A stretch of DNA of 41,945 bases from Candidatus Doudnabacteria bacterium (GCA_038249015.1 JBBRWU010000001.1:1-41945), one strand, 5' to 3'; numbered from the stretch's first letter, positions 26,484 to 39,543 are shown. Notes: generated from the letters alone by a model not told the origin. Program-made: numbers and translations.

Positions 26484-27644
26484 CTACTTATTCCCTACTT
26501 CTTTGTAATCTTTTACCATATCTCCAAAATAATCGTAAGTTATGGCGGTGCGGATTTTTTTCATTAAATTTAAATAAAAACGTAAGTTGTGCATGGTGGC
26601 CAAGCGTATAGCCAAAGGCTCGCCCGTGGCAAATAAATGGCGCAAATAACTTTTGGTATGATTCAAACACAAATAACAATCACATTGGTTATCTACCGTA
26701 GTAAAGTCTTCTTTGTATTTTTCCAAACGGATGTCCATGGTGCTATAGCCTTCTTTACCGTCTTGATCTTTCGCACTAATATACAACCGCCCATGACGCG
26801 CTTCCCTGGTCGGAATTACACAATCAAATGTATCGCAGCCGTGGCTTACTGCCTGTACTATATCAAACGGTGTGCCCACGCCCAAAAGATGCTTGGGCGA
26901 AGTTTCCGGCAAATGTGGAATACTGGCTTCCACGGCTTTCATCATTTCACTGTGTGGTTCACCCACTGCCACTCCGCCAATTGCAAAACCTTCAAAACCC
27001 AAACTCACCATATCTTTCGCCGACTGCTCGCGCAAATCCGGAAAAGATGCGCCCTGAACAATCCCCCACAATTTTTGGCCGGGATTTACCGGGTCGCCGT
27101 CTATTATAATTTTTTGATACTCTTTGATTGCTCGCTCTGCCCAGCGCTTGGTAAGCGCAATGGATTCCTTGCTTCTTTCATATTCAAACGGGTAGCCGGG
27201 AAAATCGTCCAGAATAAGACAAATATCACTACCAAGATTGGCCTGAATGTCTATGCTTTTTTCGGGAGATAAAATTTCCGTGCGCCCGTCCATATCGAAC
27301 TGAAACACCACGCCCCCTTCCCCCACTTTGCGCGTTTTTGCCAAAGAATAAACCTGAAAACCTCCACTGTCGGTAAATATCGGTCCTTTCCAATTCATAA
27401 ACCCATGGAGTCCGCCGGCTTTATAAATAAGCGCGTCGCCCGGACGTTGCCACAAATGATAAGTATTGGCCAGCACCATTTCCGCGCCCCAAAATTTTAA
27501 CTCCTCGGAGGTGACGGACTTTACCGCGCCCTTGGTGCCAATCGGCAAAAACGCCGGTGTATTTATATCCCCGTGCGCGGTATGAATTATTCCGGTGCGA
27601 GCTTTATTTGTTCCATCGGATTTTAATATATCAAAATAAGGCAT
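26484..27644 (-). CDS. tgt: Queuine tRNA-ribosyltransferase
   Basis: Carries TPAFLPIGT, FTDSGGFQV, GFAIGG and the zinc site CDCYLC..H. Confidence 0.95.
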   Translation of the reverse strand: MPYFDILKSDGTNKARTGIIHTAHGDINTPAFLPIGTKGAVKSVTSEELKFWGAEMVLANTYHLWQRPGDALIYKAGGLHGFMNWKGPIFTDSGGFQVYSLAKTRKVGEGGVVFQFDMDGRTEILSPEKSIDIQANLGSDICLILDDFPGYPFEYERSKESIALTKRWAERAIKEYQKIIIDGDPVNPGQKLWGIVQGASFPDLREQSAKDMVSLGFEGFAIGGVAVGEPHSEMMKAVEASIPHLPETSPKHLLGVGTPFDIVQAVSHGCDTFDCVIPTREARHGRLYISAKDQDGKEGYSTMDIRLEKYKEDFTTVDNQCDCYLCLNHTKSYLRHLFATGEPLAIRLATMHNLRFYLNLMKKIRTAITYDYFGDMVKDYKEVGNK

Positions 27645-27894: not shown

Positions 27895-29064
27895 TTACCG
27901 ATTTCCTTTTGCTCGGTTATGTGTTTTGCACAGCATCTCACAATTCTTGGCTGAAGTTGCGCCACCTTTACTCCAGGCCGCTACATGATCGGCTTCCATT
28001 TCGGAAAAATTCCAAATCTTATCCTTGTTAGCATCATGACCAATAGCACAGTGTGAGCAGTTCGATATACTCTTAGTTTCGGCTTTAGTAGTTTGTGTTG
28101 AGTAAACAGTTTTCTTAGTTGCTTCGTCAAAGACCCTAACGTCAAGCAATTTTGTGTCATCGGAACCACCGAGGATATACTCAAAAATACCTTTGCGATT
28201 TTTGACATACGGATCACCATAGAGTTTACGCATCTCTTTTGACACTTTCGTCGGGTTATAAGCTGTCTTATGATACACCTCATACAGTCGCCCCCATTCT
28301 AGTCCACGCATCTCACTCTCTACATCTACAAATACACCAGACACCCAATCAATCACACTGCTGAAATACTTTTTCAACTCGGTAATATTTTTTTCAAAAC
28401 GATGACTGCTCATATAATCGCCAATATTGCTTTTACTTACCCAATCAAGCGCGCATTCCAAAAAATCTTGCCTGTTGGCGCTACCCGACACATACGCACT
28501 CCATTTTTGGATATTGGAGTTTTGGCTATTGCTAAATTCCTCCTTACCGAGCGTCACAAATGGTCCTGAATACACGGCATTGAGCAACTCTTGAGGATTA
28601 AGTGGAACACCGGCAATATTGATTGTTCTAAACCATTCTTTTATCTGACTTTCTGTCCCTTCGCATTCATAGATGAGCAATTTTGTTTCCAAAATCTTGG
28701 TTTTCTTGTCTTTAGCCATACCGCTAAAATTTTGTGGATTTCCGTTCTCGTCTTTGATAGCAAATTTATCAGTCACAAAACGTCCAACACTAGTGATGCG
28801 CTGTTGCCCGTCCAAAACTTCCAGATTGTTTAGAGATACCTGATTAAAATAAATTAAACCTATTGGGTAACCTTTGAGTATTGAGTCAATAACGGCAATC
28901 TCTCTTTTTCCGCCATCTGAAGCATAAATATAGTTGCGCTGATACTCCGGCTGAATAGTGAGCTTGCCAGACAAGCCGAATAATCCTTTGCCCTCCAGTT
29001 CGTTATAGACGAACCCTTCGCAAATATCTTTGACAGTGATGTCAGTTTTTAAAATTGTTTTCAT
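27895..29064 (-). CDS. DUF262 (ParB/Srx-like NTPase, GmrSD N-domain type) fused to a C-terminal HNH nuclease
   Basis: [11 protein letters not shown] and LDGQQRITS are DUF262 hallmarks. The C-terminus CSHC...[31 protein letters not shown] is HNH. The start is taken at MKTILKT; the track ORF extends to 29115. Confidence 0.8.
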
Positions 29065-29141
29065 AATATTAAAATTTTTATTAATTTTTATCTTTTGTTT
29101 TTTTCTCAACTGCACTAATTGGTGGTTTTGCTTTTTTCATG

Positions 29142-30323
29142 TTATTTTTTCTCAATTCGCTTCTCGCGGAAAGCGTCGTCAAATATTTCATAATAATCGG
29201 CATAGATATATTTCTGTCCATAATCCGCATCGCCAAGAGGCTCAAGGATTTTTAGACCCTTGAGTCGTTCAATCACATTGTACGCTCCTGGAGCAGTGAA
29301 GCCCGTCCACTTCATTATTTCTGCCACACCGACGATCGGTTGACCAAACAACTTACGCACTATCTCTAGTGTGGACTCAGCCGATTTTTTGCCAAGTTTG
29401 TGCATTTTAGCAAAATCGCGGTCCCGCAGTGCAGTGATTTTTGTGCAAGTTTCAATAGAAGAGTTGGCAATTTCTGCGACACCTTCAAGGAAAAATTCCA
29501 ACCAGCCGTCAATATCTGCATCTTCGTCATGGTATGCCTGCAATTTTTGGTAATACAGCTTTTGGTATTTCTTGAAGTAGTTAGAGAGATACAGCACAGG
29601 CAATTCTAAAAGTTTTGCATGTTGAATATACATAGCAATGAGCATTCGCCCAGTTCGACCATTTCCATCAGTGAACGGGTGGATAGTCTCAAACTGTGCA
29701 TGTAAAAGTCCTGCTTTCACCAATGAAGGATATTCATCCTTCGCATGAATAAATTTTTCAAGGTCATCAAGAGATCTGTGCATATCATCAGGCGCAGGAG
29801 GCACAAAAGATGCATCAGCTGGAGTTTTCCCTCCAATCCAATTTTGACTATAGCGAAACTCACCCGGATATGCATGCTGGGTCGAACGCGCGCTGGTCAT
29901 TAACTTTTTATGAATTTCTTTTATCAATCGTAAAGAGATTGGCAATGTTTCTATTCTCTTCATTCCATAGTTAACGGCTTCAACATAGTGGATAATATCA
30001 TCAACATCGGGATGTTGGCGTGATTTTTCTTCTGTAACAGAAGCAGCGACTGCATCTTGTAAGGTTGCTTGAGTTCCTTCAATTTGACTGGAGTATGTTG
30101 CATCCTTTTTTATGAACATTAAAAGGAAAAAATCTTTATCCGGCAAAAGTTGCGTAATGCCATCAAGTTTACCAACAAGCCTGATTGCTTCTTCATGTTT
30201 CTTGTAGAGTCTAGGACTAATGACAAAACCACCCTTTGGAGGAAACTCAAAAGGGGTAAAGGCTCGAAAACCCTCTTTTTGGACTATATATTGGCCTATT
30301 TTCAGTTTGTTTATGTTGTTCAT
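29142..30323 (-). CDS. Fic-family protein (class II, putative AMP-transferase) with a C-terminal wHTH-like region
   Basis: The canonical Fic motif HPFTDGNGRTGR is present. The N-terminal inhibitory-helix motif SSQIEG matches (S/T)xxxE(G/N). Confidence 0.9.
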   Translation of the reverse strand: MNNINKLKIGQYIVQKEGFRAFTPFEFPPKGGFVISPRLYKKHEEAIRLVGKLDGITQLLPDKDFFLLMFIKKDATYSSQIEGTQATLQDAVAASVTEEKSRQHPDVDDIIHYVEAVNYGMKRIETLPISLRLIKEIHKKLMTSARSTQHAYPGEFRYSQNWIGGKTPADASFVPPAPDDMHRSLDDLEKFIHAKDEYPSLVKAGLLHAQFETIHPFTDGNGRTGRMLIAMYIQHAKLLELPVLYLSNYFKKYQKLYYQKLQAYHDEDADIDGWLEFFLEGVAEIANSSIETCTKITALRDRDFAKMHKLGKKSAESTLEIVRKLFGQPIVGVAEIMKWTGFTAPGAYNVIERLKGLKILEPLGDADYGQKYIYADYYEIFDDAFREKRIEKK

Positions 30324-30335
30324 ATAGATATAAAC

Positions 30336-30364
30336 ATATTATGCTATTTCGTTTATATTTGCAA
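30336..30364 (-). promoter_or_regulatory. Candidate promoter for the fic gene, TTGCAA-17 nt-TAATAT
   Basis: On the minus strand, TTGCAA is at 30364-30359 and TAATAT at 30341-30336, about 13 nt upstream of the fic ATG. Confidence 0.4.
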
Positions 30365-30402
30365 GTCTAATGTCAACTCTTTAAATATCGTTAAATCTTG
30401 CC

Positions 30403-30483
30403 TCACGATACCTTTTCAATCCTCGGCTGACCATTGTCGCCTTCATAGATTATAATTTCACCGATTTGATTGTCTTTTTTCAT
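30403..30483 (-). pseudogene. Possible N-terminal relic of a RhuM-like gene overlapping the 3' end of the RloC-like gene
   Basis: MKKDNQIGEIIIYEGDNGQPRIEKVS* resembles the conserved RhuM N-terminus (GEI.iYq..dg...iev). It stops after 26 codons. Confidence 0.3.
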
Positions 30484-32671
30484 ATTTTCTATAATTATTA
30501 TGCCAATAAGCACTGAAATGTTCACTGGCATTATTATTACCAAAAAGTTTTTGTAACATTGTTTTGATTTCATCTTTCGTCCTCCCATTTTGCTCTGCCT
30601 CCAAATCGTCAATTGAGTGTTGATTGACATCGTAAAGTTTTTTAACGCCAAGATTATTTTCAAAAAACTTATCTATACCAATAGAATTAAATTTCATATA
30701 AGTTTCGCAAATCTTCCTGAATGGATTTAGCATTATGTCTGCAGTAGCGTTATCTTCTTCATATAAAAATTGTATTTCTTTCCACAATAATTCATAGTTC
30801 GTCTTAAAATCTTGCTTGCCATTTTCAATACTTTTAATGCTTGCATGCTTGCCATCAGAAAGCAGACAATAATTACCATATTTTTCATAAAAACTAATTT
30901 CTTTATCGTTGCACTTATATTTTGTCGCCGTGTTTGGGCGAACATTTAGATAAAAATGGCAATTATGTGTTAAAAAAAGAAAATAGTTGCCATCATTAAG
31001 ATTTCTATAAAATTTTTGGATTTCACTGATCATTAAATATTGCATTGTGTCATCGTTGCTCGTCATCGGATCGTCAAAAACAACAATTTTTGGTTTACTA
31101 CTACCACTATCAACTTTTTCGAGAGAAAAAATAAAATATAAAAACGCAATAATATTTTTCTCTCCTTTGCTTAACTTCGTTATGTGTCGTACGTCACCAT
31201 CATGACCCTTGATTTTATATTGTCCTTTTTGACTTTCATCAGTATCGGTTACCAATTCAATAGAAAATGAACACGCGCCCATATTTTTCAAAAGTTCATT
31301 TATTTTTCTAGCAATTTCCTTTTCATCTTTTGTTTGCGAAATAAGATCACTTTTTTCTATTTGCCTTGCGACTAATTCTCCCTTTTTATCATTAAGTGCT
31401 TTTTCCGCCCCATCTCTACTGGTTTTCAAGGTTGATATTTTCCAGTTTTCTTCATCATACTTAAAAGTATTCAACGCTTTTTTAACTTCATGAAAACGCA
31501 AGACATTTTTTGCAGTTTCTTGCTCATTGTTTAAGTTCTTTGAAAAAAGATTATTTTTATCAACTATTTTTTCATAGTCAGTTTTAACACTACTGAAATC
31601 AGGTAGCGCTATATCAGTCAATGACTTTGATAGGGTAAACAAATTCTTCTTTTTATCTTCCAGTGCTTTGTTCAAATTACCAAGAAAAGTTTTATGTTCT
31701 CCTTTGGTATTTTTAATCTGTAAATTGATATTTTTTATTTGGTCGCCAAACTTATCATAAAAATCACCCCTGTTGATCTCCCGTAAAAAGTCTATATTTT
31801 TAAGTTCGGAATCTATTTTCTTGAGCTCATCATCAATACCGGTTTCTAACTTTTTTACTTCGTCATTAAAATAACCACCGAGCAGTTTCCATCGGTCATC
31901 ACTAATTTCATTCCCACAAAAAGCACACTTCTCGTCATTCTCGTGCTGGTGTATACGCAAACCTTCTCGCGCAAAATTTTGCTTATCTGTATTGCCTTGT
32001 AATTCAGAAATAATTTGCTGTTGAAAAACCTTTGATTGTAAAATCGTATTTGTTGATTTTTGATAATCAGACAGTATAATTTCTGGAAAATTTATTTTAG
32101 AGACATCATTTTTCTTTTCTGATTTTATAGTTTCATTGTGCTTTTTTATATCATCACTAGAAAGTAACTCTGCACTACTAATTTCTTCTTTAAATGAATT
32201 TTTATCATAACTTGTTTTTGCAATTTGTGGATTTGTCTGATTTTTTATTATCTGTGCGGAGTCACTATAAAATTTCTCTATTTTATTAGATTGTTCTTTG
32301 TACTTTTTATCCGCTCGTTCTAATTTTATAAAGATATTTTCAGACTTATCTACTGGTTGCTCAATTTCCTTTTTGATATTTACAATTTCAACATCAACCG
32401 CATCAATTTTTGTTTGAATTTTAGTATTTTCTGTCCCTAATGCAACTGCCTCTAATCGTTCATTTTCACCAACAACGCCATCGAAGCCACTAAAAATACA
32501 GACTTGATAACTATCTTGCTGTTGCGATTTTATTGTATCAGCAATAGTAGTTTTACCTGTACCATTTTTCCCAAAGATAAAATTGATTTTCTTTGTTAGT
32601 AAAAGTTCTCTGCTTTTGTTCGCAAATCTTTCTGGAAAACTTTCTAAATTTATTTTTAGTGAAGTTTCCAT
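30458..32671 (-). CDS. RloC/PrrC-like AAA_13 ATPase with coiled-coil zinc hook and an anticodon-nuclease-like C-terminal region
   Basis: Walker A FGKNGTGKTT, a long K/E-rich coiled coil with CAFCGNEI (CxxC hook), Walker B IVVFDDPMTSND, and a C-terminal NPFRKICETY...NQHS (Arg-Glu-His pattern as in PrrC/RloC). The start at METSLK (32671) lies 1 nt after the methyltransferase stop. Confidence 0.7.
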   Translation of the reverse strand: METSLKINLESFPERFANKSRELLLTKKINFIFGKNGTGKTTIADTIKSQQQDSYQVCIFSGFDGVVGENERLEAVALGTENTKIQTKIDAVDVEIVNIKKEIEQPVDKSENIFIKLERADKKYKEQSNKIEKFYSDSAQIIKNQTNPQIAKTSYDKNSFKEEISSAELLSSDDIKKHNETIKSEKKNDVSKINFPEIILSDYQKSTNTILQSKVFQQQIISELQGNTDKQNFAREGLRIHQHENDEKCAFCGNEISDDRWKLLGGYFNDEVKKLETGIDDELKKIDSELKNIDFLREINRGDFYDKFGDQIKNINLQIKNTKGEHKTFLGNLNKALEDKKKNLFTLSKSLTDIALPDFSSVKTDYEKIVDKNNLFSKNLNNEQETAKNVLRFHEVKKALNTFKYDEENWKISTLKTSRDGAEKALNDKKGELVARQIEKSDLISQTKDEKEIARKINELLKNMGACSFSIELVTDTDESQKGQYKIKGHDGDVRHITKLSKGEKNIIAFLYFIFSLEKVDSGSSKPKIVVFDDPMTSNDDTMQYLMISEIQKFYRNLNDGNYFLFLTHNCHFYLNVRPNTATKYKCNDKEISFYEKYGNYCLLSDGKHASIKSIENGKQDFKTNYELLWKEIQFLYEEDNATADIMLNPFRKICETYMKFNSIGIDKFFENNLGVKKLYDVNQHSIDDLEAEQNGRTKDEIKTMLQKLFGNNNASEHFSAYWHNNYRKYEKRQSNR

Positions 32672-32672
32672 A

Positions 32673-33860
32673 CTATTTACGTTTAATAAAAATTCTCTTA
32701 TACACCATCTTTGCAACGTTATTTTCATAGCAACCAGCTGTTGGATTACCTTCCTTGTATGCTCCAGTACCGCCAGCTTTATAATAATCATCAACAAATT
32801 TTTTTGTTAAACCTGGTGTTTTCTTAAACTTAGCGTCAACAAGGCCATTATCACTTGTTCCTAAAATTTCAAATTGATCAGGATTGTATTTGTCTAGGAA
32901 ACTAATCGGCACACCCATTACACCGTCATAGTCACTGGGGATATTTTTAACCAGTGCTATCTCAACGGCATTGTAATTATCATACTTATCAAATGATTTT
33001 TTGGTACTAAATTTTATCACATCAGCTTTAGTCATAAGCGGAATTGATTGGTGTAATCGTCCATGGTCAAGGTTGGTAAACCAACGAACACCCTGTACTC
33101 TAGTAATATAAACTTTTCTGCCGTCCTCATTTGTCTTTATTTCACGAACCTGGTCCAGATTGGCAATAGCTTCTGGAATTTCATAAAACATTGCTCCGCC
33201 ATTAACTCTTGCATTGTTGCCGAGCCAAACCCTGTTCTCTTTTATTAGTGGAAAGATTTCTTTATACGTAATGGCGTTAAGATTGCCAATGATTAAAAAT
33301 TTTTTCTTGTACTCAAAAAGTTGCTTCACATATTCGCGAAACAGACTGAACGGCGGATTTGTTACCACGATGTCGGATTGTTTAAGTAGATTTATACATT
33401 CATCACTACGAAAGTCGCCGTCGCCATCCAGTGGCATCCATTCGTTGTGCTTGTTTGCCTTTAACTGCTGGGCAATGTCCTTCAAGTTGAACTCGCCGTC
33501 ACCGTCTATGTCGCGCACTTCGTTTATAATAAATTTGTTAGCATTTACCTTGGGACGGCCTTTTAATTTTGTGAGAGTTTTGTCATCGCCAAACAAGCTT
33601 AACTGTGTGTTGGCTACAGGTGAGGGTTTGTAGCTCGTAGTGATAAGCTGTTTCAATCCAAGTTTATTAAAATTGAGCACGAAATAGCGAAAAAAATTGC
33701 TCTCAAACGGATCGTCGCAGTTGCAATAAACCACCTTGTCGCGGAATACATCGGAATTATAATCCAGATACGCTTCAATCTCTTTCTGGATATCACCGTA
33801 CTGGGTATAAAACTCGTCATTCTTTGCTCTTTTTGCGTTTGTAAGATTTTTGTTAGCCAT
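32673..33860 (-). CDS. N6-adenine DNA methyltransferase (NPPF motif), resembling the EcoRI-methylase-like family
   Basis: Contains KNDEFYTQY, VVYCNCDDPFESNF and IVVTNPPFSLFREY. The start is taken at MANKNL (33860); the longer track ORF adds an implausible leader. Confidence 0.7.
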   Translation of the reverse strand: MANKNLTNAKRAKNDEFYTQYGDIQKEIEAYLDYNSDVFRDKVVYCNCDDPFESNFFRYFVLNFNKLGLKQLITTSYKPSPVANTQLSLFGDDKTLTKLKGRPKVNANKFIINEVRDIDGDGEFNLKDIAQQLKANKHNEWMPLDGDGDFRSDECINLLKQSDIVVTNPPFSLFREYVKQLFEYKKKFLIIGNLNAITYKEIFPLIKENRVWLGNNARVNGGAMFYEIPEAIANLDQVREIKTNEDGRKVYITRVQGVRWFTNLDHGRLHQSIPLMTKADVIKFSTKKSFDKYDNYNAVEIALVKNIPSDYDGVMGVPISFLDKYNPDQFEILGTSDNGLVDAKFKKTPGLTKKFVDDYYKAGGTGAYKEGNPTAGCYENNVAKMVYKRIFIKRK

Positions 33861-33963: not shown

Positions 33964-34452
33964 TTACAGGTTAATATACGCCAAAGATTTTTTTAATTCT
34001 TTTTCTATTTCCTCTTGTGTTGGTAATTCTTCCAATTTAATTTTATCTTCTTTGCTATAAAAAGAATTATATACGTCTTTACTTTGCTCGCCTAAATTTT
34101 CAAATACGCCTTCTGGTAAATCGTCTATAGTTTTAAGATTGTGCTTTTCCAAGTACAAATCTATAACCATTTCCTGCATAAAATAATTTACGTCAAATAT
34201 TCTACGCCTTCGCGCCGCGGCAGCTCGTTTGGTTTTAAATCCTTCCTGATATTTATACGCCCATATAGCGCAATCTTCACAAACCATTTTGGGTTTATTG
34301 GTATAGGCATCTAAAATCGAGCCGATTCTTTCAAATTTCTTACGGCAATAATAGCAAGGCTTATCTTGCATTTGTGACTTATGCCCTTTGTCAGAATTAT
34401 TGCGAAAATATTTAAACTTAATTTGTGATAAAATTTCTTCTTTATCCGACAT
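33964..34452 (-). CDS. Hypothetical Zn-ribbon protein, first gene of the island
   Basis: 162 aa with CYYC...CEDC (a four-Cys pair), a basic stretch KRAAAARRRR and an acidic C-terminus. No family is recognised. Confidence 0.55.
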   Translation of the reverse strand: MSDKEEILSQIKFKYFRNNSDKGHKSQMQDKPCYYCRKKFERIGSILDAYTNKPKMVCEDCAIWAYKYQEGFKTKRAAAARRRRIFDVNYFMQEMVIDLYLEKHNLKTIDDLPEGVFENLGEQSKDVYNSFYSKEDKIKLEELPTQEEIEKELKKSLAYINL

Positions 34453-34815
34453 ATTACTTTTTCAATCCCTAATTATCAAACTCCGACCTTTAAGTATCAC
34501 TTTCAACTTTCCTACTTCGCTCAAGACTTCAGCGGACTCACTTTCTAACTTGAACATTTTTCGGTTTCCAATCACTGATGATTATTTTTTTGCCTTTCAA
34601 TTTTACCACAATACGCTGCTTCTCTTTCCATTTCACTTTTAAACAAATATGTATGAACCATAATTGGCGGGGCGAATATTTTTGTCCTTATATTTAGTAT
34701 TTGCCATATGTAAGCCCCGGTTAGAAAAAACGCTCTAACGAGGTAAATAATTATGTAAGGAATTAATTACTTATATAATAGCGCTAAAATGAAGTTTTGT
34801 TAAATACAGGCTAAA

Positions 34816-34850
34816 ATAGACGCCTTCTGATTATTTCAGAAGGCGTCTAT
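34816..34850 (-). terminator. Strong bidirectional hairpin terminator (15-bp perfect stem)
   Basis: atagacgccttctga-ttatt-tcagaaggcgtctat with A-runs and T-runs on both sides. Confidence 0.75.
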
Positions 34851-34875
34851 TTTAATTTTTCTTAAATGATACCTA

Positions 34876-35496
34876 TTACTTACAAAGCTGTGCGCTTCGG
34901 CATTGAAGTTTGGCTGCCGGGTCTGTTAAGCTATCACAAAGTTTACAGGCTTCCGGGTCTGAGCCGACCGGTTTGGCAGTAGCCGGAATTTTAGCAAAAT
35001 CCTGAAAAGTAATATTTGCAGGAGGAGTTAAAATTTCATCACTGGCAGTCCAAGCCTCACAACTAAAGTTCATCTGATTATTTAATTGCGCCTCAGCCTG
35101 ACCTGCAGATTGTGGTTCACTCAAAGACATCTTTACACCCATAGAGCCACCGTCCATCCAAATATAATTATATTTACCATCGGTTATCATATGACTGTTT
35201 ATTGTTCGTCCGTCTGTTTTTGCCTGAAAATCCCCGCGTAATTTATTATTGCTCATATAAACAACTCCCGAGGAATCCCCCGGCACGGTCGGGTCGTTAA
35301 AGGTACATTTTTGTGAAACCGATTGACCCATTAACTCTTTAAGAGTTGTGGATTTTTGGTTAGCCTGTTCCTGTTTTTTTTCGGAGGTTCCTGAATTTTG
35401 ATTTTTTACGACATTTTTGCGGCTTAGTGTAAACGCCCAAGCTGCTACCAAAAACACCAAGACAGCAACCCCTATCCATATTGCTTTTTTGTTCAT
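34876..35496 (-). CDS. Secreted or membrane-anchored hypothetical protein
   Basis: N-terminal signal anchor MNKKAIWIGVAVLVFLVAAWAF, with paired Cys residues in the C-terminal part. Confidence 0.6.
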   Translation of the reverse strand: MNKKAIWIGVAVLVFLVAAWAFTLSRKNVVKNQNSGTSEKKQEQANQKSTTLKELMGQSVSQKCTFNDPTVPGDSSGVVYMSNNKLRGDFQAKTDGRTINSHMITDGKYNYIWMDGGSMGVKMSLSEPQSAGQAEAQLNNQMNFSCEAWTASDEILTPPANITFQDFAKIPATAKPVGSDPEACKLCDSLTDPAAKLQCRSAQLCK

Positions 35497-37284: not shown

Positions 37285-39543
37285 TTATCTGTCAAAATTT
37301 CTGCGTGGGGGGCGGGAACCGCCATGGCCTCCACCGTGACCAAAGGACGGCTTGCGCGGTCCGCGGTCAAAACCTCTGTCTCCTCCGCCTGAGGCGGCCG
37401 AAGCCAACTGCTCGGCTGTTGGAGGCCCGGCAAAGGGTTTATGAGTTAAATTAATTCTGCCTTGGTCGTCAATTTCACTGACTTCCACTTTTAAGGTATC
37501 ACCAATTTTCACCACGTCTTCCACTTTATTTACCCGGTAGTTGGCCAGCTGGGAAATATGCACCAGTCCGTCTTTGCCTGGAAGAACTTGCACAAAAGCG
37601 CCAAAATCCATAATCCTAACGACTTTACCTTCGTAAATTTCTCCCGCCTGGACTTCTTTGACAATATTTTGAATCCATTCCACGGCTTTTTTGGCACTGT
37701 CGGCATCGGTAGAAGTTACCATAACCAAACCGTCATCTTCAATGTCAATTTTCACGCCCGGACAGCTGGCAATAATTTCATTAATAATTTTACCACCGCT
37801 ACCAATAACTTCGCGAATTTTATCCGGCTTGATTTTGAAAGAGGTAATGCGCGGAGCGTACGGGGACAAATCCGCGCGCGGAGCGGAAATTGCTTCTTTC
37901 ATTTTGCTGATGATGTGAATACGCGCGGGCTTGGCTTGCTCTAAAGCCTGCGCTAAAATATCCGCGCTTAAACCTTTCAACTTCATATCCAATTGTAATG
38001 CGGTAACGCCGTGTTCCGAGCCCGTAACTTTAAAATCCATATGTCCGTTAAAATCTTCAATGCCCGCAATGTCGGTTAAAACTTTAAAATTATTGGGGTT
38101 CTTTTCATCCATAACCAAACCCATAGCGCAACCGCCAATGACTTCCGTAATTGGCACGCCGGCATCCATAAGTGCTAATGTCGATCCACAAGTGGAAGCC
38201 ATAGAAGTAGAACCGTTAGAAGACATAATTTCGCTCACCAAACGCATAGTGTATGGAAAAGCTTCTTGAGTTGGTAACACAACCTCTACGGCGCGCTCGG
38301 CTAACATACCGTGACCAATCTCTCTACGACCCGGGCCGCGTAACGGAGCCACTTCGCCCACACTATAACCAGGCATATTATAGTGATGAATGTATCGTTT
38401 GGTCCGGCCTTCGGAAGGGTCTTCCATACCGTCCAAGGTTTGTTCATCGCCTTTACTGCCCAAAGTTACCACCGTAAGCGCTTGAGTTTCCCCGCGAGAA
38501 AACAACGCGCTACCGTGAGTTCTCGGCAAAACGCCGACTTCACAGGTAATGGTGCGGGTTTCGTTTAATTTTCTGCCGTCTACTCTGCGTTCATTTTCTA
38601 AAATTTGCTTTTGTTGATATTTCTTTAAAATTTTATCTATAGATTTAGCAACTTCTTTTTCTATGTTGACGCCGGCAATTTCCCCCACGGCTACTTTTAC
38701 CGCTTCCACAATTTCCTTAGACAACACCCTTACGTTATTTTCTCTTTCTTCTTTATTTTTTACGTAAAGCGCCGCATCCATTTTATCGACAGTTAAAAGT
38801 TCCTGGACTTTGGCAAAAACCTGTTCGTTGGGCTTAATAATAATCGGGTCCGTTTTGGCCTTGCCAACTAATTTTACAAAATCCAATTGACATTTTACTA
38901 ACTCGCCCAAATAACCTTGGGCAAATTTAATCCCTTCCACAATTTCTTCTTCTGTCACTAATTTCGCGCCCATTTCCACCATAATAATGTGCTCGCCGGT
39001 ACCGCAGACAATTAAATCCATAGTGGATGTAAGTTGCTGTTCGTGAGTCGGATTAATAACATATTTTCCTTCCAATTTACCCACTCTAACACCGGCTACA
39101 GGGCCGTCAAACGGCACATTGGAAATTGCCAAGGCCATAGAAGCGGCATTTACTGCCAACATGTCGGGCTCGTTTTCTCCGTCAATACACAAAACCATAG
39201 CAGTTACCTGCACGTCGTTGCGCATACCGTCCGGAAAAAGCGGCCTTAAAGTTCGGTCAATTACCCGGCCCTTTAAGATGGCATCGTCGGTGGCGCGGCC
39301 TTCGCGCTTAATCCACCTACTGCCTTTAATTTTTCCCGCGGCGTAAAGGCGTTCTTCATAATCCAGCAAAAGCGGGAAAAAATCTATTCCCTCTCTGGCC
39401 TTGTCGCTCATTATAGTTGTGGCTAAAACTACGGTGTCGCCGACGCGCGCCAAAACAGCGCCGCTGGCTTGTCCGGCCAATTTGCCGGTTTCAAATACAA
39501 AATCAGCCTCGCCGATTTTGCAAGAAATCTTTTTGGATTCCAT
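37285..39543 (-). CDS. pnp: Polyribonucleotide nucleotidyltransferase (PNPase) with a Gly/Arg-rich C-terminal tail
   Basis: Two RNase PH domains, then KH (IREVIGSGGKIINEI) and S1 (GEIYEGKVVRIMDFGAFV) domains. The tail reads GGGDRGFDRGPRKPSFGHGGGHGGSRPPRRNFDR. Confidence 0.95.
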   Translation of the reverse strand: MESKKISCKIGEADFVFETGKLAGQASGAVLARVGDTVVLATTIMSDKAREGIDFFPLLLDYEERLYAAGKIKGSRWIKREGRATDDAILKGRVIDRTLRPLFPDGMRNDVQVTAMVLCIDGENEPDMLAVNAASMALAISNVPFDGPVAGVRVGKLEGKYVINPTHEQQLTSTMDLIVCGTGEHIIMVEMGAKLVTEEEIVEGIKFAQGYLGELVKCQLDFVKLVGKAKTDPIIIKPNEQVFAKVQELLTVDKMDAALYVKNKEERENNVRVLSKEIVEAVKVAVGEIAGVNIEKEVAKSIDKILKKYQQKQILENERRVDGRKLNETRTITCEVGVLPRTHGSALFSRGETQALTVVTLGSKGDEQTLDGMEDPSEGRTKRYIHHYNMPGYSVGEVAPLRGPGRREIGHGMLAERAVEVVLPTQEAFPYTMRLVSEIMSSNGSTSMASTCGSTLALMDAGVPITEVIGGCAMGLVMDEKNPNNFKVLTDIAGIEDFNGHMDFKVTGSEHGVTALQLDMKLKGLSADILAQALEQAKPARIHIISKMKEAISAPRADLSPYAPRITSFKIKPDKIREVIGSGGKIINEIIASCPGVKIDIEDDGLVMVTSTDADSAKKAVEWIQNIVKEVQAGEIYEGKVVRIMDFGAFVQVLPGKDGLVHISQLANYRVNKVEDVVKIGDTLKVEVSEIDDQGRINLTHKPFAGPPTAEQLASAASGGGDRGFDRGPRKPSFGHGGGHGGSRPPRRNFDR

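What the first reader, a model, noticed from the sequence alone, without database searches (positions are those of the whole stretch)
30458..33860. Translationally coupled methyltransferase and RloC-like ATPase with no canonical restriction partner
The methyltransferase stop codon (32673-32675) and the ATG of the RloC-like gene (32669-32671) are 1 nt apart. PrrC is classically embedded in a type Ic R-M cassette and kept latent by it, and RloC is often next to type I/III R-M genes. Here the only R-M-like partner directly coupled to it is a single methyltransferase, with no specificity or restriction subunit. This suggests a different way of licensing the tRNase, such as sensing the methyltransferase state, or a type II-like pairing with the downstream HNH protein.
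Basis: partly seen in the sequence, partly recalled or inferred. Interest (0 to 1): 0.65.

Follow-up and report, generated by a model that had tools for sequence, protein, structure and literature searches.

The report
RloC-like tRNase embedded in R-M operon
The methyltransferase is not alone: it belongs to a common two-gene restriction-modification operon, and an RloC-like ATPase/putative tRNA nuclease and a Fic toxin have been inserted between its two genes, which is a known kind of layered anti-phage arrangement.

Summary
The coordinates and the 1-nt stop/start junction are correct. The ATPase is a full-length member of the PrrC/RloC family: Pfam AAA_13 3e-100 and PADLOC candidate PDC-S06 7e-235. 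It has ABC motifs, a CxxC hook and an R-x3-E-x28-H motif whose Arg and His are invariant in 71 relatives.

The claim of no restriction partner is wrong. The DUF262-HNH gene two genes downstream (27895-29064) matches a type II restriction-enzyme profile (2.4e-76). In 76 of 78 related loci with usable upstream sequence it lies downstream of an EcoRI-family methyltransferase. In 42 of 65 complete cases it directly abuts that gene, usually with the same stop-1nt-ATG junction. The other 23 carry 1-5 cargo genes between M and R, including RhuM, Fic, OLD-like and AbiU2.

The window is M-[RloC-like ATPase + SoFic-like Fic]-R. Seven of the 12 closest ATPase relatives with usable flanks sit with this same R-M pair, usually right after M. 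More distant relatives sit beside type I, IIG, III or no R-M.

This matches published patterns: RloC-like ABC-HEPN genes with R-M and DOC/Fic genes (2013), and embedded defences (2024). I class it as a new member of a known kind. Nuclease activity and any cross-talk with the R-M enzymes remain inferred.

The parts
32673..33860 (-). M gene: EcoRI-family N6-adenine DNA methyltransferase (395 aa, TNPPF motif). First conserved gene of the R-M operon.
   Evidence: Pfam PF13651 E 2.1e-125, covering the whole model. PADLOC MTase_II 2.1e-103. Homologues lie upstream of the DUF262-HNH gene in 76 of 78 loci with usable upstream sequence.
32669..32675 (-). Junction: M stop TAG (32673-32675), one base, then the ATPase ATG (32669-32671).
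   Evidence: The same stop + 1 nt + ATG junction joins M to R in 25 of 42 adjacent M-R loci, and joins M to the first cargo gene in most cargo-bearing loci.
30458..32671 (-). RloC-like ABC ATPase with a C-terminal putative anticodon-nuclease domain (737 aa). A member of PADLOC candidate family PDC-S06, embedded between M and R.
   Evidence: Pfam AAA_13 3e-100 (residues 18-710 against model 7-712 of 713). PADLOC PDC-S06 7.1e-235 and PrrC 9.6e-8. AF2 model pLDDT 83. Best fold matches are SMC/Rad50 heads with coiled coil. GC falls to 0.30 here against about 0.42 in the flanks.
32549..32572 (-). Walker A / P-loop, GKNGTGKT (residues 34-41).
   Evidence: K40 is invariant in 71/71 relatives.
31916..31927 (-). 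CAFC (C249, C252): CxxC zinc-hook-type motif in a loop between long helices.
   Evidence: Both Cys are 71/71 invariant. The model places residues 241-257 in a non-helical stretch between helices. RloC's hook is described in PMC2610378.
30461..30949 (-). C-terminal domain (residues 575-737): a small beta unit plus a helical bundle. Candidate PrrC/RloC-type (HEPN-class) RNase domain.
   Evidence: On its own it matches the C-terminal part of Pfam AAA_13 (model 586-712, E 3.4e-12). It gives no PADLOC PrrC hit on its own and no significant PDB fold match.
30617..30718 (-). R652-x3-E656-x28-H685 (RKICE...KKLYDVNQH): candidate catalytic triad.
   Evidence: R 71/71, E 63/71, N683 68/71, H 71/71. Published motifs are PrrC R320/E324/H356 and RloC R-x3-E-x36-52-H.
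29142..30323 (-). SoFic-like Fic/DOC protein (393 aa, HPFTDGNGRTGR motif). Second embedded cargo gene.
   Evidence: Pfam Fic and Fic_N. PADLOC SoFic 1.5e-105. An 83%-identical Fic sits directly upstream of R in L148.
27895..29064 (-). R gene: DUF262 (DGQQR) + HNH endonuclease, 389 aa starting at MKTILK. The listed ORF extends to a GTG at 29115. Cognate restriction partner of M.
   Evidence: Pfam GmrSD_N 2e-20 and HNH 3.5e-6. PADLOC REase_II 2.4e-76, residues 22-405 against model 4-371 of 372. At least 8000 relatives, mostly 389 aa. M-R synteny.
33964..34452 (-). orf162: Cys-rich ORF upstream of M. Probably in the same transcription unit but not a conserved part of the system.
   Evidence: No Pfam, PADLOC or NCBIfam hit. 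No tblastn match in any of the 172 loci.
34811..34855 (.). 20-bp perfect hairpin (bidirectional terminator-like) marking the upstream edge of the island.
   Evidence: The scan as a whole is not above chance (7 found against 4.5 +/- 2.4 expected).

Best explanation
Genes 27895-33860 form one minus-strand operon built on a widespread type II restriction-modification pair. The pair is an EcoRI-family m6A methyltransferase (M) followed by a DUF262-HNH endonuclease (R). In its basic form R starts 1 nt after the M stop codon.

In this window two self-contained, abortive-infection-type genes are embedded between M and R. The first is an RloC-like protein: a Rad50/SMC-type ABC ATPase head, a coiled coil with a CxxC hook, and a C-terminal PrrC/RloC-type RNase domain. 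The second is a SoFic-like Fic enzyme. The ATPase gene now occupies the slot directly after M, so it is co-transcribed with M and probably translationally coupled to it.

Most likely function: a latent second line of defence. By analogy with G. kaustophilus RloC, the ATPase/zinc-hook module keeps the nuclease off until ATP hydrolysis is triggered by DNA ends. Such ends could come from R cutting phage DNA or from phage-induced breaks. By analogy with PrrC, loss of the R-M complex could also trigger it. The C-domain would then cut tRNA anticodon loops and stop translation.

Shown: gene order, family membership, motif conservation, and recurrence of the M-ATPase-R layout.
Inferred: that R cleaves unmethylated DNA, that the C-domain is an active tRNase, and how it is switched on.
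For: - Family assignments.
- R is the regular partner of M: direct M-R operons in L081/L082 and L084. 76 of 87 R loci have M upstream on the same strand, and 9 of the other 11 have under 210 nt of upstream sequence. 42 of 65 complete cases are adjacent, with gaps of -50 to +4 nt, and 23 carry co-oriented cargo.
- The cargo is defence-like: RhuM/PDC-S05 in 11, plus Fic, AAA_15/21 + OLD-TOPRIM, HEPN_AbiU2, NYN and T5orf172.
- The same layout recurs with the ATPase: L001 and L171 M-A-R (gaps 1 and 3 nt), L002 and L166 M-A-DUF2130-R, L167 M-A-DUF2130-BroN-R, L006 M-R-A, L071 R-A.
- DNA alignment with L148 shows M, Fic and R are collinear. Only the segment between M and Fic differs: the ATPase here, a 201-aa ORF there.
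- ATPase anatomy: invariant Walker A, signature, Walker B, H-loop, CxxC, R652 and H685 in 71 relatives. Rad50/SMC fold matches.
- The C-domain alone matches the AAA_13 C-terminal region at 3.4e-12.
- Literature: RloC is activated by ATP plus linear DNA and silenced through its zinc hook (PMC3458546). Triad mutants abolish activity (PMC2610378). RloC-like ABC-HEPN genes occur in R-M neighbourhoods with DOC toxins (PMC3710099).
Against: - No direct alignment with EcoPrrC or GkaRloC could be made.
- The C-domain alone gives no hit to the PADLOC PrrC model and no significant fold match in the PDB, with a model pLDDT of only 70.
- The E-to-H spacing (28) lies outside the published RloC range of 36-52.
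- The HEPN-type Arg before the His is a Lys here (K678).
- Nothing shows physical or regulatory cross-talk with M or R. The ATPase and R phylogenies are incongruent: the L001 and L171 R proteins are 82% identical while their ATPases are 60%. Relatives sit beside many other R-M types or none.
- Most DUF262 nucleases studied so far are modification-dependent, so the role of R as a classical REase rests on synteny and one profile match.
Confidence: 0.6

Rival explanations
1. Pure hitch-hiker. The ATPase (PDC-S06) is an autonomous single-gene defence that landed in a recombination-prone slot between M and R. It shares transcription with the R-M genes and travels with them, but has no functional interaction with them.
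For: - The M-R gap accepts many unrelated cargo genes.
- The 1-4 nt junction after M is used by any first cargo gene.
- ATPase relatives occur next to Eco57I-type, HsdM/HsdS, N6_N4, DpnII and Type ISP genes, or with no R-M at all.
- The ATPase and R trees are incongruent.
- RloC is reported to have an internal switch and to be rarely R-M linked.
Against: - Seven of the 12 closest ATPase relatives with usable flanks sit in this one R-M family, across different phyla and two divergent R subclades. That is more than a random landing would give.
- None of 87 R-centred loci sampled from CPR metagenomes has the ATPase, so the link is specific to this ATPase clade.
Confidence: 0.3
2. First reader's model. 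The methyltransferase alone is the regulatory partner, and the tRNase is licensed by sensing the methyltransferase or methylation state, with no restriction enzyme involved.
For: - Tight stop-1nt-ATG junction.
- The ATPase directly follows M in 6 loci.
Against: - R is present in every M-ATPase locus.
- L006 has the order M-R-ATPase and L071 has R-ATPase.
- P0005 has neither M nor R.
- The junction is generic for this operon.
Confidence: 0.05
3. Accessory-subunit model. The Rad50-like ATPase is part of the restriction machinery, tethering DNA ends or adding ATP dependence to the HNH enzyme, and its C-domain is not an RNase.
For: - Rad50/SMC-like fold with coiled coil and hook.
- Position between M and R.
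- No independent fold or HMM proof that the C-domain is a nuclease.
Against: - 42 of 65 M-R operons work without any inserted gene.
- The C-domain matches the AAA_13 (PrrC/RloC family) C-terminal region.
- R652 and H685 are invariant, which fits a catalytic site.
Confidence: 0.05

Closest known systems
RloC (Geobacillus kaustophilus RloC; Davidov & Kaufmann 2008, Klaiman et al. 2012)
   Same: Size class (737 against 804 aa). ABC ATPase motifs. Long helical insert with an invariant CxxC. C-terminal domain with Arg-x3-Glu...His. Ser precedes the His in most relatives (VNSHS), as described for RloC. JGI names homologues 'wobble nucleotide-excising tRNase'.
   Different: The Glu-His spacing is 28 in the window, against the published 36-52. 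The C-domain profile finds only about 238 clusters of its own subfamily. This clade is frequently R-M linked, whereas rloC is 'rarely' linked: 8 of 72. No direct alignment or activity data.
PrrC embedded in the type Ic R-M locus EcoprrI (hsdM-hsdS-prrC-hsdR)
   Same: An ABC-ATPase/RNase gene nested inside an R-M operon, downstream of the modification gene and upstream of the restriction gene. R-x3-E...H motif with similar spacing (31 in PrrC).
   Different: PrrC is about 400 aa without a coiled coil or hook. Its host system is type Ic, whereas this one is a two-gene type II pair. The PADLOC PrrC model matches only weakly (9.6e-8) and not on the C-domain alone.
PADLOC phage-defence candidate PDC-S06
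   Same: Full-length match to model PDLC04897 (residues 6-725 against model 4-725 of 727, E 7.1e-235).
   Different: PDC-S06 is catalogued as a single-gene candidate. Here it is nested in a type II R-M operon. No paper found by search reports an experimental test of PDC-S06.
RloC-like ABC-HEPN + R-M + DOC/Fic or RhuM neighbourhoods (Anantharaman et al. 2013, PMC3710099)
   Same: The same combination of genes: R-M genes, an RloC-like ABC-HEPN gene and a Fic/DOC gene. RhuM is the commonest alternative cargo in the same slot.
   Different: This specific M/R families pair, the fixed junction and the CPR distribution were not found described in the papers I read. I could not see that paper's figure or supplement.
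Embedded defence genes in multi-gene immune systems (Payne et al. 2024 preprint) and the rlo genes in Campylobacter jejuni hsd loci
   Same: Variable defence cargo nested between the genes of a host defence operon.
   Different: Those surveys covered Hma, BREX, DISARM and type I R-M. Here the host is a two-gene type II operon.

Membership tests
RloC | ABC ATPase motifs (Walker A, signature, Walker B/D-loop, switch His) | tested here: met
   GKNGTGKT, LSKGEKN, VVFDDP and THN are present. K40, S501, G503, D533, D534 and H569 are invariant in 71/71 relatives.
RloC | Coiled-coil insert with a CxxC zinc hook, making the ATPase Rad50-like | tested here: met
   CAFC at residues 249-252, both Cys 71/71. 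AF2 model has long helices across residues 80-445. Best PDB fold matches are SMC/Rad50 heads with coiled coil. Zinc binding not testable here.
RloC | C-terminal Arg-x3-Glu-x36-52-His triad, Ser often before His | tested here: inconclusive
   R652-x3-E656-x28-H685. R and H 71/71, E 63/71. Most relatives have NSH. The spacing in the window is shorter than the published range. No residue-level alignment to GkaRloC R692/E696/H737 was possible.
RloC | Sequence homology of the C-domain to the PrrC/RloC nuclease domain | tested here: inconclusive
   The C-domain alone hits Pfam AAA_13 model positions 586-712 at 3.4e-12. It does not hit the PADLOC PrrC model, gives no PDB fold match, and its profile search stays within its own subfamily.
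RloC | Wobble-nucleotide excision from tRNA, activated by ATP + DNA ends | not testable with these tools
   Biochemical property (PMC2610378, PMC3458546).
PrrC | About 400-aa ABC ATPase + nuclease without a coiled-coil insert | tested here: not met
   737 aa with an insert of about 370 residues.
PrrC | Embedded in a type Ic hsdMSR locus | tested here: not met
   The host operon is an EcoRI-family M + DUF262-HNH R pair. No HsdS or HsdR is present.
PADLOC PDC-S06 | Full-length match to a PDC-S06 profile | tested here: met
   PDLC04897 E 7.1e-235, 780 bits, residues 6-725 against model 4-725 of 727.
Type II R-M system (M + R pair) | DNA methyltransferase with catalytic motif | tested here: met
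   PF13651 full length. PADLOC MTase_II. TNPPF motif in the translation.
Type II R-M system (M + R pair) | Endonuclease gene consistently linked to that methyltransferase | tested here: met
   PADLOC REase_II 2.4e-76. DGQQR and HNH motifs. M lies upstream in 76 of 78 loci with usable sequence, and is adjacent in 42 of 65.
Type II R-M system (M + R pair) | R cuts the unmethylated site that M protects | not testable with these tools
   Needs enzymology or methylome data. Many DUF262 nucleases are modification-dependent, so this is an inference.
SoFic (Fic defence gene) | Fic_N + Fic domains with the HPFx[D/E]GNGR motif and a profile match | tested here: met
   Pfam Fic 1.2e-19 and Fic_N 6.3e-19. 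PADLOC SoFic 1.5e-105. HPFTDGNGRTGR motif. The NCBIfam SoFic equivalog scored below its cut-off (140 against 550 bits).

The most novel reading that the evidence does not exclude
The junction after this methyltransferase is a dedicated, translationally coupled docking slot. The EcoRI-like-M / DUF262-HNH operon captures interchangeable abortive-infection toxins there (RloC-like ATPase, RhuM, Fic, OLD-like, AbiU2). Each toxin is expressed in proportion to M and held latent by the R-M proteins. This would be a general type II version of the EcoprrI-PrrC silencing principle, with DNA ends made by R as the activating signal for the Rad50-like sensor.
Probability: 0.15. Interest if true: 0.6.

Novelty: new member of a known kind. 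Interest (0 to 1): 0.35.

Why it matters
It corrects the reading of the locus. The methyltransferase has a cognate nuclease, and the ATPase is nested cargo.

It also shows that a very common Patescibacteria-type two-gene R-M operon carries variable defence cargo between M and R in about a third of sampled loci.

The compact three-gene M-ATPase-R versions (L001, L171) would be a simple system for asking whether an RloC-type nuclease is controlled in cis by an R-M enzyme or by the DNA ends that enzyme makes. That question has been open since RloC was described.

The concept itself is already in the literature, so the gain is a good test case rather than a new principle.

Tried and rejected
- **Solved structure of PrrC/RloC.** Sequence and profile searches of the PDB gave only weak Rad50, SMC and AriA hits. 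No PrrC/RloC structure was found.
- **Finding a real PrrC for alignment.** tblastn of the ATPase against plasmids returned only 'AAA family ATPase' genes. The short-match case I opened (H37/L165) was another 736-aa protein, not PrrC.
- **C-domain against the PADLOC PrrC model.** No hit at E <= 1. The full-length PrrC hit is therefore driven by the ATPase half.
- **C-domain profile against 1.84 billion representatives.** 238 hits, nearly all with the same architecture. It did not bridge to PrrC-sized proteins among the 150 listed.
- **C-domain AF2 model and Foldseek against the PDB.** pLDDT 70, best E 0.89, no HEPN match. Inconclusive.
- **NCBIfam.** No family for the ATPase, M or R.
- **orf162 as a controller protein.** No domain hit and no homologue in 172 loci, so rejected as a conserved part.
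- **Promoter scan.** Not above chance (29 found against 27.7 expected), so no claim about internal promoters.
- **Did the ATPase's first codons (METSLK) derive from R's MKTILK/METTLK?** Other ATPases natively start M-x-x-x-LKI(D/N)L, so the resemblance may be coincidence. Left open.
- **Literature on DUF262-HNH type II enzymes.** Nothing specific found.
Full report
**1. What is in the sequence**

All genes of the region are on the minus strand. In order of transcription they are:

| Gene | Coordinates | Product |
|---|---|---|
| orf162 | 33964-34452 | Cys-rich ORF, no family match |
| M | 32673-33860 | 395-aa methyltransferase |
| ATPase | 30458-32671 | 737-aa ATPase |
| Fic | 29142-30323 | 393-aa Fic protein |
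| R | 27895-29064 | DUF262+HNH protein, 389 aa from MKTILK (the mechanical ORF runs to a GTG at 29115) |

The flanks are housekeeping genes: tgt at 26484-27644 and PNPase at 37285-39543. The M gene ends with TAG at 32673-32675 and the ATPase ATG is at 32669-32671, one base apart. GC falls from about 0.42 in the flanks to 0.30-0.33 inside the ATPase gene. That suggests this segment was acquired separately.

**2. Family assignments**

- **M:** Pfam EcoRI_methylase over the full model (2.1e-125) and PADLOC MTase_II (2.1e-103).
- **ATPase:** Pfam AAA_13 over almost the whole 713-position model (3e-100). PADLOC candidate PDC-S06, model PDLC04897, full length (7.1e-235). The PrrC model hits only weakly (9.6e-8, residues 437-726).
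- **Fic:** Fic_N + Fic, and PADLOC SoFic (1.5e-105).
- **R:** GmrSD_N (DUF262) + HNH, and a full-length match to PADLOC's type II restriction-enzyme model PDLC03418 (2.4e-76).
- **orf162:** no hit in any library, and no homologue in any of the 172 loci fetched.

**3. Is the ATPase RloC-like?**

It has 261 scored relatives, of which the 120 listed are 48-63% identical and nearly all full-length, from many phyla. Several are named by JGI 'wobble nucleotide-excising tRNase'.

In 16- and 66-sequence alignments, and in a 71-sequence alignment reaching down to 28% identity, the following positions are invariant: Walker A K40, signature S501/G503, Walker B D533/D534, switch H569, C249 and C252 of a CxxC, R652 and H685. 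E656 is kept in 63/71 and N683 in 68/71.

The motif reads R-x3-E-x28-H in the window. Most relatives have VNSHS, and some carry insertions that lengthen the spacer. Davidov and Kaufmann defined RloC by Arg-x3-Glu-x36-52-His 'where Ser often precedes His', matched to PrrC R320/E324/H356. They showed that mutating the triad kills the nuclease and that the CxxC hook regulates it (PMC2610378).

An AlphaFold model (pLDDT 83) shows an ABC head split by long helices. Its best PDB matches are SMC and Rad50 heads with coiled coils, followed by the defence ATPases LmuB, AriA and PtuA.

The C-terminal 163 residues alone match the C-terminal part of the AAA_13 model (positions 586-712, E 3.4e-12). Homology of that domain to the family therefore does not depend on the ATPase half.

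The limits of this evidence are:
- The C-domain alone does not hit the PADLOC PrrC model.
- A profile of it finds only 238 clusters in 1.84 billion representatives, nearly all with the same architecture.
- Its separate model (pLDDT 70) has no significant fold match.
- The PDB holds no PrrC/RloC structure detectable by sequence.
- I could not obtain EcoPrrC or GkaRloC sequences for a residue-level alignment.

'RloC-like' is therefore well supported at the level of architecture and motifs. Nuclease activity is inferred.

**4. The methyltransferase is not alone**

The DUF262-HNH protein has at least 8000 relatives. The 120 listed are 84-91% identical, nearly all 389 aa, and most of those with a taxon name are Patescibacteria.

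Their contexts show a canonical operon:
- L081/L082: HTH, a 77-aa ORF, EcoRI_methylase, then R with a 4-nt gap.
- L084: M overlaps R by 4 nt.
- L078-L080: five genes lie between M and R.

I then surveyed 87 loci: 80 from a metagenome scan plus the 7 above.
- 76 have an EcoRI-family methyltransferase upstream on the same strand.
- Of the 11 without one, 9 have fewer than 210 nt of upstream sequence. One has 1.3 kb. Only L108 has ample sequence and no M.
- Of 65 loci with a complete M ORF, 42 have M and R adjacent. The gap is 1 nt in 25 and a 4-nt overlap in 10.
- The other 23 carry one to five cargo genes, nearly all co-oriented, in between.

The cargo includes RhuM (PDC-S05) in 11 of 44 non-redundant cargo ORFs, plus Fic, AAA_15/AAA_21 with an OLD-type TOPRIM, HEPN_AbiU2, NYN, T5orf172, AntA and a Dam-class methylase.

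In cargo-bearing loci the first inserted gene also starts 1-4 nt after the M stop. The tight junction is therefore a property of the operon, not of an M-ATPase pair.

L148 has M, a 201-aa ORF, a Fic 83% identical to the window's, then R. DNA alignment shows M, Fic and R collinear with the window, and only the segment between M and Fic differs. The window is thus M-[ATPase][Fic]-R.

**5. Is the ATPase specifically linked to this R-M pair?**

None of the 87 R-centred loci has the ATPase. Starting from the ATPase side gives a different picture.
- In 77 species-representative genomes, only L001, L002 and L006 have an EcoRI-family M. All three also have the DUF262-HNH gene. L071 has R directly upstream of the ATPase at a contig end.
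- Among further close relatives: P0003 is M-A-DUF2130-R, P0004 is M-A-DUF2130-BroN-R, P0010 is M-A-R with gaps of 1 and 3 nt, and P0005 has no R-M.
- Counting only the closest relatives (at least 56% identity) with usable flanks, 7 of 12 are associated with this R-M pair. In five of them the ATPase directly follows M.

More distant relatives are preceded by other R-M genes. Among 140 genes at positions -1 and -2, Pfam hits were Eco57I-type 9, N6_Mtase 8, Methylase_S 8, N6_N4_Mtase 5, ResIII 4 and DpnII 2. One locus has a Type ISP specificity domain. Some proteins may match more than one of these models. Downstream genes are variable.

The phylogenies do not track each other. The R proteins of L001 and L171 are 82% identical and about 40% identical to the window's. 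Their ATPases are 60% identical to each other and 64% and 60% to the window's. The modules have been re-assorted, but the association with this R-M family has persisted.

**6. Mechanism**

The best-supported reading is a layered defence operon. A type II R-M pair is the first line. Two embedded toxins act as back-up.

For the ATPase the closest experimental model is GkaRloC. Its nuclease is silent until its ATPase is stimulated by DNA. Linear DNA is far more effective than circular DNA, and hook mutations uncouple this control (PMC3458546). PrrC is instead silenced by its R-M partner and released by a phage anti-restriction peptide.

Placing an RloC-type sensor between M and R gives two plausible triggers: DNA ends produced by R on incoming DNA, or loss of the R-M complex. 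I cannot distinguish these, and neither is shown.

The main rival is that the gene is an autonomous hitch-hiker in a permissive slot. This is favoured by the variety of cargo and by the incongruent trees. It is disfavoured by the repeated association of this ATPase clade with this one R-M family.

**7. Comparison with what is known**

- Anantharaman et al. [quoted passage not shown] They describe a subset of RloC-like genes in mobile neighbourhoods with R-M components and a DOC toxin (PMC3710099).
- Payne et al. 2024 describe defence genes embedded in Hma, BREX, DISARM and type I R-M, and supply the PDC candidates.
- PDC-S06 appears in several defence surveys as an untested candidate.

The window is therefore a clear new example of a described pattern. 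The features not described in the papers I read are:
- the host operon, a two-gene EcoRI-family M / DUF262-HNH R pair that is very common in Patescibacteria;
- the fixed stop-1nt-start slot;
- the recurrence of compact M-ATPase-R cassettes.

**8. Verdict**

- Observation: partly confirmed. The junction is right. 'No restriction partner' is wrong.
- Interpretation: partly supported.
- Novelty: new member of a known kind.
- Interest: 0.35.

Noticed in passing
L078-L164 (M-R loci); window 29065-32672: The space between the EcoRI-family methyltransferase and the DUF262-HNH gene is an insertion hot spot. 23 of 65 complete loci carry 1-5 cargo genes there, nearly all co-oriented: RhuM/PDC-S05 most often, plus Fic, OLD-like ATPase+TOPRIM, HEPN_AbiU2, NYN, T5orf172, AntA and a Dam-class methylase.
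   Followed up: partly
L156:8930-8965: Directly after the M gene there is a second copy of the R gene's first codons (ATGAAAACAACTTTAAAAACC, MKTTLKT). A 345-aa cargo gene and the complete R follow. The cargo may have entered by recombination inside the 5' end of R.
   Followed up: no
window 27895-29064 and relatives P0122-P0240: The DUF262-HNH protein is unusually conserved for a restriction enzyme. At least 8000 relatives have E <= 1e-10. The 120 listed are 84-91% identical and nearly all exactly 389 aa, across many Patescibacteria lineages and a Chloroflexi MAG. The partner methyltransferases vary far more (about 44-87% identical).
   Followed up: no
L002:4601-5896, L006:3839-5110, L007:6742-8028, L166:7200-8462, L167:3776-5053: A 420-432-aa DUF2130 protein directly follows the ATPase in five loci, overlapping it by 4 nt in L006. 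In L007 no R-M genes were seen in the sequence held. It may be a partner of this ATPase clade, and it is absent from the window.
   Followed up: partly
window 33964-34452: orf162 contains two CxxC pairs (CYYC...CEDC), has no family match, and has no homologue in 172 related loci. It sits where other loci have a small HTH gene upstream of M.
   Followed up: partly
window 34811-34855: A perfect 20-bp hairpin reads as a terminator on both strands. It lies between the 206-aa gene (34876-35496) and the island, and is followed by a promoter-like TTAACA-17-TATTAT at 34803-34775.
   Followed up: no
L001, L171 compared with window, L002, L166, L167: The ATPase and R phylogenies are incongruent. The R proteins fall into two clades about 40% identical to each other, while the ATPases are 55-71% identical in a different pattern. 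This points to module shuffling between cassettes.
   Followed up: partly
L148:8028-8633, L130:3433-4020: A 195-201-aa ORF with a hydrophobic N-terminus and no family match occupies the slot after M where the window has the ATPase. The two copies are 81% identical.
   Followed up: no
L108: This is the only locus with ample upstream sequence (about 8 kb) and no EcoRI-family methyltransferase near the DUF262-HNH gene. It could be an orphan nuclease, or one paired with a different methylase.
   Followed up: no
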